Shown one piece after another: positions 56,291-58,386 of a stretch of 64,000 nt of DNA. The stretch's first letter is position 1, and the number at the start of each line of letters is the position of its first letter. Origin of the DNA: a virus. A program made the translations under genes and the position numbers. Location: positions 5,489 to 69,488 of IMG/VR virus record IMGVR_UViG_3300042554_001257. The stretch is one strand, 5' to 3'. The notes beneath the pieces are model-generated. The model was not told the origin of the DNA. It worked only from the letters and a program-made list of their open reading frames with translations, and did no database searches.

Positions 56291-56365
56291 TGGAGGCGGG
56301 GGGTGGAGTTGAACCACCTACCTGAAGCTTATGAGACTTCTGTGCAACCGTTACACTTCCCCACG
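56291..56365 (-). tRNA. trnM: tRNA-Met(CAT), initiator-like 1:72 mismatch
   Basis: GAAGT-CT-CAT-AA-GCTTC; C1xC72; encoded CCA. Confidence 0.8.
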
Positions 56366-57868: not shown

Positions 57869-57872
57869 AAGG

Positions 57873-57963
57873 TGGGAGAGGAGGGAATTGAACCCCCGAT
57901 GGTTCCGATGTAACGGTTTTACAGACCGCAGCCACACATATTGCCAACAGTAGCCACTCTCCC
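57873..57963 (-). tRNA. trnY: tRNA-Tyr(GTA) with an enlarged D arm
   Basis: GCGGT-CT-GTA-AA-ACCGT; D arm GCTAC...GTGGC with a 14-nt loop. Confidence 0.85.
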
Positions 57964-57966
57964 AAA

Positions 57967-58039
57967 TGGGTCTGGTCGGACTCGAACCGACGACTTACAG
58001 GTTAAAAGCCCGCTACTCTACCAACTGAGTTACAGACCC
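57967..58039 (-). tRNA. trnK: tRNA-Lys(TTT), first gene of the array
   Basis: GCGGG-CT-TTT-AA-CCTGT. Confidence 0.94.
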
Positions 58040-58056
58040 ACATAATATAGGATAAA

Positions 58057-58099
58057 TATTCAGTTGTCTAGGTTCTCGGTGAGGGGTGATCCCTCAACC
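58057..58099 (-). promoter_or_regulatory. boxB-like hairpin + boxA-like antitermination signal
   Basis: TGAGGG/CCCTCA hairpin, then GAACCTAGACAACTGAATA, close to cyanobacterial rrn boxA GAACCTTGA(A/C)AA. Confidence 0.6.
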
Positions 58100-58171
58100 A
58101 CTTGATTAGAATACCACCGTTTGGTCTCTGGGGGGAGATTGGTGGACGCTTAGGAAACTGTCACAGGCAAC

Positions 58172-58206
58172 AAAAAAGGGGAGGAAACTTTTGGTTTCTC
58201 TCCCCT
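58172..58206 (-). terminator. attenuator terminator between the leader ORF and the tRNA array
   Basis: AGGGGAG-A-GAAAC-CAAAA-GTTTC-CTCCCC + T6. Confidence 0.85.
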
Positions 58207-58232
58207 GTCTTTTTGCTTTTATGGATTACATC

Positions 58233-58334
58233 TTACATATGTCTATCCATATCCGCAAACAGGGGAGCACCCTCAATATGCCAATAGCGGCAATCGAGAT
58301 TACTAAACTGTTTTGTGGGCATCGGGAAAGACAT
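58233..58334 (-). CDS. 33-aa putative attenuator leader peptide MSFPMPTKQFSNLDCRYWHIEGAPLFADMDRHM
   Basis: Not in ORF track; ATG 58334, TAA 58235-58233; AGGT 8 nt upstream; codons 5-23 all different amino acids; codons 23-26 complementary to the terminator 5' arm. Confidence 0.8.
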   Translation of the reverse strand: MSFPMPTKQFSNLDCRYWHIEGAPLFADMDRHM

Positions 58335-58355
58335 TGTTTTCGACCTAAGTATGTT

Positions 58356-58386
58356 TATTTATAAGACTTTTATTTTAAAAAGTCAA
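58356..58386 (-). promoter_or_regulatory. composite sigma70-like / T4-late promoter for the leader
   Basis: TTGACT-17-TATAAA, where the -10 is part of TATAAATA (gp55 consensus). Confidence 0.7.

What the first reader, a model, noticed from the sequence alone, without database searches (positions are those of the whole stretch)
58172..58268. Mutually exclusive terminator/antiterminator hairpins positioned for ribosome control
Seen (minus-strand RNA): the terminator is AGGGGAG-A-GAAAC-CAAAA-GUUUC-CUCCCC-U6 (58206-58172). Its 5' arm ACAGGGGAG (58208-58200) is perfectly complementary to CUCCCCUGU inside the leader ORF (58267-58259, codons 23-26). That alternative helix extends through UUGC/GCAA, UAUGGAU/AUCCAUA and ACAU/AUGU, with the stop codon in its loop. 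The antiterminator arm starts at the last codon of the 19-codon run. Inference: smooth translation to the stop masks the arm, the terminator forms and the array is off; stalling in the run frees the arm and allows read-through. Stalls at the last codons (Glu, Gly, Ala) would partly cover the arm and be sensed less well; trnA and trnG lie behind internal promoters.
Basis: partly seen in the sequence, partly recalled or inferred. Interest (0 to 1): 0.9.

Follow-up and report, generated by a model that had tools for sequence, protein, structure and literature searches.

The report
Leader-ORF attenuator before cyanophage tRNA genes
A 33-codon mini-gene, three competing RNA helices and a transcription stop signal sit just ahead of this cyanophage's main tRNA genes, laid out like the classical trp attenuator, so the phage may tie its tRNA output to how well ribosomes are translating.

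Summary
Terminator 58206-58172 and the alternative helix CUCCCCUGU (58267-58259)/ACAGGGGAG (58208-58200) lie exactly as described. A 9-nt match this good arose in 17 of 20,000 shuffles.

The element recurs in S-PM2 and in over 130 IMG/VR cyanophage loci. tRNA-Lys, head of the tRNA array, follows in 122 of 126 loci with readable flanks.

It pairs the start-codon half of the ORF with its 3' half, giving a full 1:2 / 2:3 / 3:4 attenuator layout. All helices are conserved, with compensatory changes.

The ORF frame is kept in 70 of 71 unique copies. Loop indels are -3 and +6 nt.

The antiterminator forms in 93 of 93 unique copies when region 1 is removed, and in 51 of 93 when it is present. At equilibrium the full transcript always folds to the terminator, so any switch must be kinetic.

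No transcript ends, translation or regulation have been shown.

This scan has already reported the same element on at least 8 other genomes. Six literature searches found no published account.

Verdict: a probable ribosome-dependent attenuator of a phage tRNA array, untested at the bench.

The parts
58356..58386 (-). Promoter region. TTGACT (58386-81), a 17-nt spacer and TATAAA overlap a T4-late-type TATAAATA box (58363-56). The -35 and spacer form a palindrome, GACUUUUU..AAAAGUC (58384-65).
   Evidence: Sequence. ATAAATA is invariant in the 71 rows of A2. NATAAATA as the S-PM2 late promoter, and overlapping early plus late promoters, come from PMC2984593 passages. The palindrome covaries: GACAUUUU/AAAAUGUC, and S-PM2 GAGUUU/AAACUC. 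The start site is not mapped.
58233..58334 (-). Leader ORF, 33 codons plus UAA: MSFPMPTKQFSNLDCRYWHIEGAPLFADMDRHM.
   Evidence: The frame is kept in 70 of 71 unique homologues, with L085 shifted by a 1-nt deletion. The 22 intact copies with apical-loop variants keep the frame, including -3 nt and +6 nt indels. No Pfam or PHROG family matches. Translation itself is not shown.
58300..58347 (-). Region 1: the 5' strand of helix P1, covering the 5' UTR, the AUG and codons 1-12.
   Evidence: MFE folds. P1 has 34 pairs and 87.5% of 2340 cells paired, against 27-43% when slid; 10 pairs changed on both sides. Example: AUGACCUACC pairs with GGUAGGUCA in L031.
58271..58299 (-). Apical hairpin, codons 12-22. 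It contains the 20-mer GATTGCCGCTATTGGCATAT (58295-58276).
   Evidence: The exact 20-mer occurs in 107 IMG/VR stretches. In a sample anchored outside it, 96 of 119 copies have it or the CGT variant, and the other 23 vary only in the loop or rearrange the stem. There is a single copy in the window.
58239..58269 (-). Region 2: the 3' strand of P1, which is also the 5' strand of the antiterminator (core CUCCCCUGU 58267-58259, UUGC 58258-55, UAUGGAU 58251-45, ACAU 58242-39).
   Evidence: Codon choice fits the pairing. Pro is CCC in 84 of 88 Pro codons and Leu is CUG in 89 of 90, although CCC is only 10% of Pro codons and CUG 13% of Leu codons in 39 long ORFs of the window. CCC is unpaired in P1.
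58200..58231 (-). Region 3: the 3' strand of the antiterminator (AUGU 58231-28, AUCCAUA 58226-20, GCAA 58216-13, ACAGGGGAG 58208-00). The last 7 nt are also the base of the terminator 5' arm.
   Evidence: Compensatory examples: UUGU/ACAA in L113, L118 and L119 against UUGC/GCAA; CCCCUUU/AAAGGGG in L020.
58172..58206 (-). Intrinsic terminator (regions 3:4): a 12-bp stem with one bulged A, loop CAAAA and a U6 tract.
   Evidence: -17.8 kcal/mol; 96.9% paired; 6 pairs changed on both sides. It is GGGGGC-A-GGU/ACC-GCCCCC in the L015 clade.
58041..58171 (-). Structured spacer leading to tRNA-Lys: conserved hairpins (CCACC..GGUGG; GGUUGAGGG..CCCUCACC 58099-78) and a boxA-like GAACCUAGACAAC (58075-63). 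A sigma70-like match lies at 58070-58042.
   Evidence: The -10-like box ends 0-2 nt before the tRNA in 30 of 31 matches scoring 10/12 or better, so a start there would fall inside tRNA-Lys (inference). L152/L153 have only about 48 nt here and the L015 clade 73 nt, with no promoter-like match.
57966..58040 (-). tRNA-Lys(UUU), the first gene of the main tRNA array and the presumed regulated unit.
   Evidence: It is the next downstream tRNA in 122 of the 126 loci whose flank is held.

Best explanation
This is a ribosome-dependent transcription attenuator at the head of the phage's main tRNA array.

Transcription starts at an overlapping sigma70-like and T4-late-type promoter (TATAAATA, 58363-56) and enters a 33-codon ORF.

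The RNA can fold in two ways.
- State A: P1 (the 5' half of the ORF including the AUG, paired with the 3' half), plus the apical hairpin, plus terminator 58206-58172.
- State B: the 3' half of the ORF pairs instead with the post-stop region and the base of the terminator 5' arm (CUCCCCUGU/ACAGGGGAG). Only a 5-bp A-U-rich remnant of the terminator is left, so RNA polymerase runs on through the boxA-like spacer into tRNA-Lys and the array.

Inferred logic:
- With no ribosome, P1 forms first and the terminator follows.
- With a ribosome that has passed region 1, upper P1 re-forms behind it and the terminator again follows.
- With a ribosome still sitting on region 1 or the apical hairpin (P-site codons up to about 18) when region 3 emerges, region 2 is free, the antiterminator forms, and the tRNA genes are transcribed.

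Slow or late translation would thus raise tRNA output, a negative feedback on decoding capacity.

Shown here: the sequences, their mutual exclusivity, their conservation and covariation, frame conservation and synteny. Inferred: translation of the ORF, the kinetic choice between folds, and the direction and signal of regulation.
For: 1. Anatomy at the stated coordinates.
2. The 58345-58165 RNA folds far better than shuffles (z = -5.98; 0 of 200 shuffles as good) into P1 plus terminator.
3. Cut at the end of the terminator 5' arm, the window RNA's MFE is the antiterminator (-43.8 / -44.2 kcal/mol). Regions 2-4 are nearly isoenergetic: -34.9 with the terminator against -33.9 with the antiterminator forced.
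4. Across 93 unique elements, P1 is in the full-length MFE of 93 of 93. The antiterminator is in the truncated MFE of 51 of 93, and of 93 of 93 once region 1 and the apical hairpin are removed. The mean energy gain is -14.4 kcal/mol against -7.5 (sd 2.8) for arm-shuffled controls; 35 of 93 beat all 60 shuffles and 67 of 93 were matched by at most 3 of 60.
5. All four helices show pairing and compensatory changes. The same nucleotides (GGAUAGACAU) covary with two different partners.
6. Rare CCC and CUG codons are fixed where they pair with the G-run, while CCC is unpaired in P1.
7. The frame is conserved in 70 of 71 copies, with in-frame indels including -3 and +6 nt in a hairpin loop. Radical residue changes (ERH to VGQ or ESL) track base-pair covariation, so the RNA and the frame matter more than the peptide sequence.
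8. Synteny: tRNA-Lys follows in 122 of 126 loci, whereas the upstream neighbour varies (Arg 90, Ala 18, Asn 9, Gly 3, none 9). In L152/L153 and the L015 clade the spacer is too short and promoter-less, so array transcripts must cross this terminator.
9. Weak hint: a 262-nt contig from an RNA library of a relative spans 58339-58120, that is, across the terminator.
Against: - At equilibrium the full transcript folds to the terminator at all 15 masked ribosome positions tried. Forcing the antiterminator in the whole RNA costs about 13 kcal/mol (-51.0 against -64.3). The model therefore rests on untested kinetics.
- In 39 of 93 unique copies the truncated RNA keeps P1, and in 3 of 93 the arm pairs with region 1 instead.
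- Covariation in the competing 10-bp core is thin: 6 cells changed on both sides, and 38 of 500 shuffles reach the same number of covarying pairs. C-runs pair with G-runs even when slid (56-72%).
- RNAalifold on A2 recovers only the apical hairpin, the terminator and part of the inner hairpin.
- A second reading frame is also open across the region (my reading). The Shine-Dalgarno-like AGG is lost in several copies (L031, L041, L058, L118, L119, L127).
- There is no run of regulatory codons, and region 1 is the least conserved part of the peptide.
- The window has a sigma70-like match abutting tRNA-Lys and further promoter-like sites inside the array.
- The homologues share ancestry (about 3-4 clades), so counts such as 93 of 93 are not independent.
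- The RNA-library contigs may derive from DNA, and contigs cannot show transcript ends.
- Transcription-translation coupling in the cyanobacterial host is assumed, not shown.
Confidence: 0.55

Rival explanations
1. A stand-alone small gene or dual-function small RNA. The promoter, the 33-codon ORF and a constitutive terminator make a transcript of about 170 nt of their own. P1 hides the AUG to limit or time its translation, or to stabilise the RNA. The 2:3 pairing is only a folding intermediate or a translation-open form, and the tRNA array is driven from elsewhere.
For: It has its own promoter and a strong terminator. At equilibrium the terminator always forms. P1 sequesters the AUG and is the best-supported helix. 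The core of the peptide and the apical stem are highly conserved. The window has promoter-like sites downstream. From memory: T4's tRNA cluster also carries small stable RNAs of unknown function (species 1 and 2).
Against: The pairing that specifically invades the base of the terminator is conserved, even in a clade with a different terminator sequence. It is enforced by rare codons that P1 does not use. The peptide's ends change radically to follow RNA pairing, and its core positions 16-17 vary (R to Q or L; Y to D or E), which argues against a functional protein. The element keeps its place directly before tRNA-Lys while the upstream neighbour changes. Short spacers without a promoter leave no other way to transcribe the array.
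Confidence: 0.2
2. A non-coding riboregulator. The same three-helix switch controls the terminator, but the trigger is a bound factor (a protein, a tRNA or another RNA at the invariant apical hairpin, or temperature) rather than a ribosome. The ORF is then incidental.
For: The apical stem is fixed at nucleotide level beyond what coding requires: synonymous variants at Asp, Cys, Tyr and His were seen in none of about 117 true homologues returned by a pattern that allowed them. A second frame is open too (my reading). The Shine-Dalgarno-like AGG is lost in some copies. P1 would block most ribosome entry.
Against: The frame is kept in 70 of 71 copies. Indels inside the hairpin loop come as -3 and +6 nt. 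The first in-frame stop always falls in the inner hairpin, even where that hairpin's sequence is entirely different (L023, L015 clade). The apical loop varies in both sequence and length, which is not what a specific binding site would show. Synonymous third positions vary where they are unpaired (GGN in all four forms; GCG/GCU/GCA). No Rfam family, including T-box, matches (best E 0.2).
Confidence: 0.15
3. A chance complementarity next to an ordinary terminator that simply ends the tRNA-Arg or small-ORF transcript.
For: C-rich and G-rich runs pair easily: slid controls still pair in 56-72% of cells, and arm-shuffled controls still gain -7.5 kcal/mol.
Against: P=0.00085 for the 9-mer in the window alone. 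The pairing is conserved in 64 of 64 distinct strand combinations across clades. There are compensatory changes and a codon bias toward the pairing.
Confidence: 0.02

Closest known systems
Leader-peptide transcription attenuators of amino-acid operons (E. coli/Salmonella trpL, hisL, pheL, leuL, thrL, ilvL); recalled from textbook knowledge, and listed in abstracts PMC1183508 and PMC3082878
   Same: A short ORF in the leader. Four RNA regions forming 1:2, 2:3 (antiterminator) and 3:4 (intrinsic terminator with a U-tract). The ORF overlaps region 1. The default without translation is termination. Ribosome position is proposed to choose the fold.
   Different: The regulated genes are tRNAs, not biosynthetic enzymes. 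The element lies in a virus of cyanobacteria. There is no run of one regulatory codon; instead the peptide uses 18-20 amino-acid kinds. The ORF spans regions 1 and 2, and its stop codon lies in the loop between regions 2 and 3, rather than between 1 and 2. The AUG itself is sequestered in 1:2.
pyrBI-type attenuation and other coupling sensors (recalled)
   Same: Read-through depends on how closely a ribosome follows RNA polymerase, not on one particular amino acid.
   Different: In pyrBI a close ribosome physically prevents the terminator hairpin. Here a lagging ribosome is predicted to favour read-through through an antiterminator.
rrn-type antitermination leaders (boxB/boxA with NusB/NusE), recalled
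   Same: A hairpin plus a boxA-like GAACCUAGACAAC / CACCUUGACAA lies between the terminator and tRNA-Lys, and is conserved across clades.
   Different: That system makes polymerase resistant to Rho after the leader. It does not use an ORF or an intrinsic terminator switch. Its presence here is a motif resemblance only and was not tested.
Small stable RNAs in the phage T4 tRNA cluster (species 1 and 2), recalled
   Same: Non-tRNA RNA genes embedded in a T4-like phage tRNA cluster.
   Different: Those RNAs are not known to carry an ORF or a terminator switch.

Membership tests
Ribosome-mediated leader-peptide attenuator | Short ORF with a start codon in the leader, maintained as a reading frame | tested here: met
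   The ORF is 33 codons. The frame is kept in 70 of 71 unique copies, and loop indels of -3 and +6 nt keep it. Translation itself was not tested.
Ribosome-mediated leader-peptide attenuator | Intrinsic terminator (G+C-rich hairpin plus U-tract) between the leader ORF and the regulated genes | tested here: met
   At 58206-58172, -17.8 kcal/mol, with U6. 96.9% of cells are paired and 6 pairs covary.
Ribosome-mediated leader-peptide attenuator | Antiterminator (2:3) mutually exclusive with the terminator | tested here: met
   It shares AGGGGAG with the terminator. 93.6% of cells are paired. It forms in 93 of 93 copies when region 1 is absent. Covariation in the core is thin.
Ribosome-mediated leader-peptide attenuator | Anti-antiterminator (1:2) whose 5' strand is covered by the translating ribosome | tested here: met
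   P1 has 34 pairs, 87.5% paired, and 10 pairs covary. It is in the MFE of 93 of 93 copies. Its 5' strand is the AUG plus codons 1-12.
Ribosome-mediated leader-peptide attenuator | Regulatory codons: a cluster of codons for the amino acid whose supply is sensed | tested here: not met
   There is no repeated codon cluster, and region 1 varies (MSYPMPTKQFSIL, MSFQMNKQIITS, MSNFSKQIEIFMES). Instead 69 of 74 peptides hold 18 or more amino-acid kinds.
Ribosome-mediated leader-peptide attenuator | Regulated genes lie downstream in the same transcription unit | tested here: inconclusive
   tRNA-Lys follows in 122 of 126 loci, and the short spacers have no promoter. However, the window has a promoter-like match abutting the tRNA, and no transcript map exists. 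One RNA-library contig crosses the terminator.
Ribosome-mediated leader-peptide attenuator | Termination frequency responds to translation of the leader | not testable with these tools
   This needs Term-seq, reporters or in vitro coupled transcription-translation.
T-box or other curated cis-regulatory RNA (Rfam 15) | Match to a curated covariance model | tested here: not met
   There is no family at gathering score. The best hit below it is E 0.2, an unrelated sRNA model.
T4-type late promoter | TATAAATA box at -10 | tested here: met
   It lies at 58363-58356 and is invariant in A2. The motif definition comes from PMC2984593 passages. Activity was not tested.
Known protein family for the 33-aa product | Profile match | tested here: not met
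   Pfam and PHROGs: 0 families at E up to 1. tblastn against 50,697 phage records: no match.

The most novel reading that the evidence does not exclude
The leader is a general decoding-capacity sensor. It is a near-pangram peptide (18-20 amino-acid kinds in 32-33 codons) whose slow translation, for want of almost any charged tRNA or simply of free ribosomes, opens the antiterminator and switches on transcription of the phage's near-complete tRNA set. That would be the first attenuator known to control tRNA genes, and a homeostat for translation capacity during infection.
Probability: 0.3. Interest if true: 0.9.

Novelty: new variant of a known kind. Interest (0 to 1): 0.75.

Why it matters
How phages regulate the tRNA genes they carry is essentially unknown. 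Those genes are usually treated as constitutively transcribed cargo.

A leader-ORF attenuator in front of a tRNA array would link tRNA supply to the performance of translation itself. It would extend a textbook enterobacterial mechanism to viruses of cyanobacteria and to RNA genes.

It would also offer a compact natural sensor of translation speed. The element is testable now, because S-PM2 and its host Synechococcus WH7803 are in culture and S-PM2 carries a homologue.

It also flags an unannotated, widely conserved mini-ORF. In S-PM2 the region is annotated only as an opposite-strand hypothetical gene.

Tried and rejected
- Equilibrium masking of a 28-nt ribosome footprint at 15 positions never produced the antiterminator in the full transcript. 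I therefore dropped the idea that thermodynamics alone shows a switch.
- Folding from the AUG without the 5' UTR gave yet another partner for the terminator arm: UCUUUCCC of codons 2-4. The same occurred in 3 of 93 copies. I treat this as evidence that the predictions are degenerate, not as a fourth helix.
- RNAalifold on A2 did not recover P1 or the antiterminator.
- After seeing only S-PM2 I thought the peptide's amino-acid diversity was peculiar to the window. One search corrected this: 69 of 74 peptides have 18 or more kinds. All copies share one ancestral core, however, so this is a single event and not repeated selection.
- A functional-microprotein reading was considered and ranked low.
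- Pfam, PHROGs and tblastn gave nothing. The search for homologous proteins rejected the 33-aa query as too short, and I did not pursue protein searches further.
- blastn of the 206-nt element against 50,697 phage records found only three S-PM2 records.
- Sequencing runs: no run held even half of the sampled words, the best share being 0.19. The four runs laid are contigs of relatives, so they show no starts, ends or levels. The stretch 58055-58111 had no cover, which means nothing.
- My first spacer script failed on a bad pattern and returned 3 rows. It was redone.
- Literature searches found no paper describing a leader ORF or attenuator before phage or cellular tRNA genes. I saw listings and abstracts only, passages of PMC10690425, PMC2984593 and PMC9964418, and nothing of Millard et al. 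2010, which is not held. Supplementary files were not consulted and may hold S-PM2 transcript maps that bear on this.

Rows dropped before counts:
- 4 of 110 hits were too near a contig end.
- the unrelated L121 and L132.
- 18 of 134 loci were dropped (8 with no downstream tRNA held, 6 with no U-tract pattern, 4 with the tRNA more than 460 nt away).
- hits with under 120 nt downstream.
- only elements fitting my promoter-ATG, TGGCA and C-run/T-run patterns were kept. Copies with a CCCUAUUUU tract (the L040, L045 and L123 group) and the broken L139 were left out.
Full report
**Setting.** The window is a T4-like cyanomyovirus. Rfam finds PhotoRC-II and wcaG RNAs and 23 tRNAs. ARAGORN finds 23 tRNA genes, all on the minus strand between 48297 and 58460. 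The finding lies between tRNA-Arg(UCU) (58460-58387) and tRNA-Lys(UUU) (58040-57966), the first gene of the dense array.

**The observation.** Reading the minus strand confirms every element at the stated coordinates:
- terminator AGGGGAG-A-GAAAC / CAAAA / GUUUC-CUCCCC plus U6 (58206-58172);
- ACAGGGGAG (58208-58200), perfectly complementary to CUCCCCUGU (58267-58259);
- the extensions UUGC/GCAA, UAUGGAU/AUCCAUA and ACAU/AUGU, with the stop codon UAA (58235-33) in the loop.

The ORF 58334-58233 encodes MSFPMPTKQFSNLDCRYWHIEGAPLFADMDRHM, and CUCCCCUGU spans codons 23-26. ViennaRNA reproduces the alternative helix exactly when the RNA is cut at the end of the terminator 5' arm. The terminator hairpin alone is -17.8 kcal/mol. 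A perfect complement of 9 nt or more to the 17-nt arm arose in 17 of 20,000 shuffles of the 135 upstream bases.

The minimum-energy fold of 58345-58165 is not the antiterminator. It is a long hairpin, P1, in which the 5' UTR, the AUG and codons 1-12 pair with codons 22-33. P1 is capped by an apical hairpin (codons 12-22) and followed by the terminator. The fold is -61.4 kcal/mol with z = -5.98, and 0 of 200 shuffles fold as well. The RNA therefore has the four regions of a classical attenuator:
- 1:2 is P1;
- 3:4 is the terminator.

**Homologues.**
- S-PM2 carries a 75%-identical stretch between its tRNA-Arg and tRNA-Lys. The ORF there is unannotated; only an opposite-strand hypothetical gene is listed.
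- A 20-mer in the apical hairpin is found exactly in 107 IMG/VR stretches.
- A pattern allowing all synonymous variants added only CGC to CGU, among about 117 true homologues.
- A search anchored outside the hairpin, in the 5' UTR plus AUG, gave 119 copies. Of these, 96 are canonical and 23 vary in the apical loop or rearrange the stem.
- Among 50,697 phage records only S-PM2 matched the 206-nt element.

**Is the ORF real?**
- The frame from the conserved AUG is kept in 70 of 71 unique copies; L085 has a 1-nt deletion.
- Indels are in frame: -3 nt at codons 7-8, a net +3 in the S-PM2 clade, -3 nt (L159/L160) and +6 nt (L152/L153) inside the apical loop.
- The first in-frame stop always falls in the inner hairpin, even where that hairpin has a different sequence (L023; L015 clade).
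- Unpaired third positions vary synonymously: GGU/A/G/C and GCG/U/A.
- The peptide itself is not well kept. Its tail changes from ERHM to VGQM or ESLM together with residue 2, following P1 base-pair covariation. Core positions 16-17 also vary.

This pattern fits a translated leader whose frame and RNA matter more than its product. There are caveats. A second frame is also open (my reading). The Shine-Dalgarno-like AGG is lost in several copies. No family matches the peptide.

**Conservation of the helices on alignment A2 (71 unique rows).**

| Helix | Pairs | Cells paired | Paired when slid | Pairs changed on both sides |
|---|---|---|---|---|
| P1 | 34 | 87.5% | 27-43% | 10 (31 cells) |
| Inner stop-codon hairpin plus UUGC/GCAA | 14 | 89.5% | 24-45% | 4 |
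| Competing antiterminator core | 10 | 93.6% | 56-72% | 3 (6 cells) |
| Terminator | 12 | 96.9% | 57-73% | 6 (18 cells) |

Clear compensatory cases:
- AUGACCUACC with GGUAGGUCA in L031;
- UUGC/GCAA changing through UUGU/GCAA to UUGU/ACAA in L113, L118 and L119;
- CCCCUGU/ACAGGGG changing to CCCCUUU/AAAGGGG in L020;
- the L015 clade, where the terminator stem is GGGGGC-A-GGU/ACC-GCCCCC and the leader strand is C(C/G)CCCCUG.

Codon choice points the same way. Pro is CCC in 84 of 88 Pro codons and Leu is CUG in 89 of 90. Yet CCC is only 10% of Pro codons and CUG 13% of Leu codons in 39 long ORFs of the window, and CCC is unpaired in P1.

**Energetics.**
- In the window, regions 2-4 fold to -34.9 kcal/mol with the terminator and -33.9 with the antiterminator forced.
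- Over 93 unique elements, P1 is in the full-length MFE of all 93. In the RNA cut before the terminator 3' arm, the antiterminator is the MFE in 51, the arm pairs with region 1 in 3, and P1 persists in 39.
- With region 1 and the apical hairpin removed, mimicking a ribosome there, the antiterminator forms in 93 of 93. It gains -14.4 kcal/mol against -7.5 (sd 2.8) for arm-shuffled controls.
- Against the model, the complete transcript folds to the terminator at equilibrium whatever 28-nt stretch is masked (15 of 15 positions). Only a co-transcriptional, kinetic choice can give read-through.

**What lies downstream.**
- tRNA-Lys(UUU) is the next tRNA in 122 of the 126 loci whose flank is held.
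- The upstream neighbour varies: tRNA-Arg 90, Ala 18, Asn 9, Gly 3, Thr 1, none 9, contig edge 4. The element therefore travels with the head of the array.
- The spacer holds conserved hairpins and a boxA-like CACCUUGACAA / GAACCUAGACAAC.
- Of 79 unique spacers, 31 hold a sigma70-like match of 10/12 or better. In 30 of these, including the window's, the -10 box ends 0-2 nt before the tRNA, so a start there would fall inside tRNA-Lys (inference).
- L152/L153 (about 48 nt) and the L015 clade (73 nt) have no promoter-like match. In those phages array transcripts must cross this terminator.
- The promoter in front of the ORF combines TTGACT-17-TATAAA with TATAAATA, the T4/S-PM2 late motif. Overlapping early and late promoters have been proposed to give the middle mode of transcription in RB49, S-PM2 and Syn9 (PMC2984593 passages).

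**Expression.** No run holds the window's sequence well. Contigs from RNA libraries of relatives cover the element. One contig of 262 nt spans 58339-58120, that is, across the terminator. This is a hint only: contigs show no ends, and DNA may be present in such libraries.

**Mechanism proposed.**
- Without a ribosome, P1 zips up from the apical hairpin as soon as region 2 is made, region 3 stays free, and the terminator forms.
- A ribosome that loaded on the nascent AUG and is still on region 1 or the apical hairpin (P-site codon up to about 18) when region 3 emerges keeps region 2 single-stranded. 2:3 then forms, only GAAAC/GUUUC is left of the terminator, and polymerase continues into the array.
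- A ribosome that has moved on lets upper P1 re-form behind it (codons 33/34), and termination follows.

The steps from 'ribosome loaded' onward are inference.

The leader holds 18-20 amino-acid kinds in 69 of 74 unique peptides; for random 33-mers P(18 or more) = 0.039. This fits a general decoding sensor, but it rests on one ancestral core, and the exact 19-residue run is in only 3 of 74 peptides.

**Comparison and novelty.** The layout matches leader-peptide attenuators, except for the absence of a regulatory codon cluster, the nature of the regulated genes, and the position of the stop codon. No Rfam family matches, and six literature searches found no description. This scan has already reported the same element on at least 8 other genomes, with the same reading. 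Those are unchecked AI notes that I read after forming my own view, and they are not independent evidence.

**Verdict.** The element is most likely a ribosome-dependent attenuator of the tRNA array (0.55). The rivals are a stand-alone small gene or RNA (0.2) and a non-coding switch (0.15).

Noticed in passing
window 58365-58384 (-): A palindrome, GACUUUUU..AAAAGUC, spans the -35 box and spacer of the leader promoter and covaries in homologues (GACAUUUU/AAAAUGUC; S-PM2 GAGUUU/AAACUC). It could be an operator for a dimeric protein, or an RNA hairpin closing the upstream tRNA transcript.
   Followed up: partly
window 58041-58171 (-): The spacer has two or three conserved hairpins and a boxA-like motif (58075-58063). 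Some relatives carry a duplicated or extended version (spacers of 211-308 nt), and others only 48-73 nt. The sigma70-like match at 58070-58042 ends 1 nt before tRNA-Lys.
   Followed up: partly
window 58233-58334 (-) and homologues: The leader peptides are near-pangrams across the family: 69 of 74 unique peptides have 18 or more amino-acid kinds, 5 have all 20, and Val is absent in 56 of 74. The median longest run of distinct residues is 15, against P(15 or more) of about 0.002 for random 33-mers.
   Followed up: partly
window 58270-58272 with about 58130-58136 (-): RNAalifold pairs the GGG after the apical hairpin with the C-run in the loop of the first spacer hairpin. Three or four rows are changed on both sides at each of the 3 pairs. 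This may be a long-range contact or an artefact.
   Followed up: no
window 56294-56365 (-): Rfam calls a tRNA here (46.4 bits) that ARAGORN does not list.
   Followed up: no
window 57871-57963 (-): ARAGORN calls a 93-nt tRNA-Arg(GCG) at the second array position, where many relatives have tRNA-Tyr(GUA). The length is unusual for tRNA-Arg.
   Followed up: no
L015:2853-3096 and downstream: In L015 the tRNA-Lys after the element appears truncated and fused to the next tRNA, and ARAGORN's first downstream call is tRNA-Asp.
   Followed up: no
L001 (S-PM2) 1443-1799: S-PM2 annotates a 357-nt opposite-strand hypothetical gene (S-PM2d160/p160) across tRNA-Arg and the leader element. It is probably spurious.
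   Followed up: no
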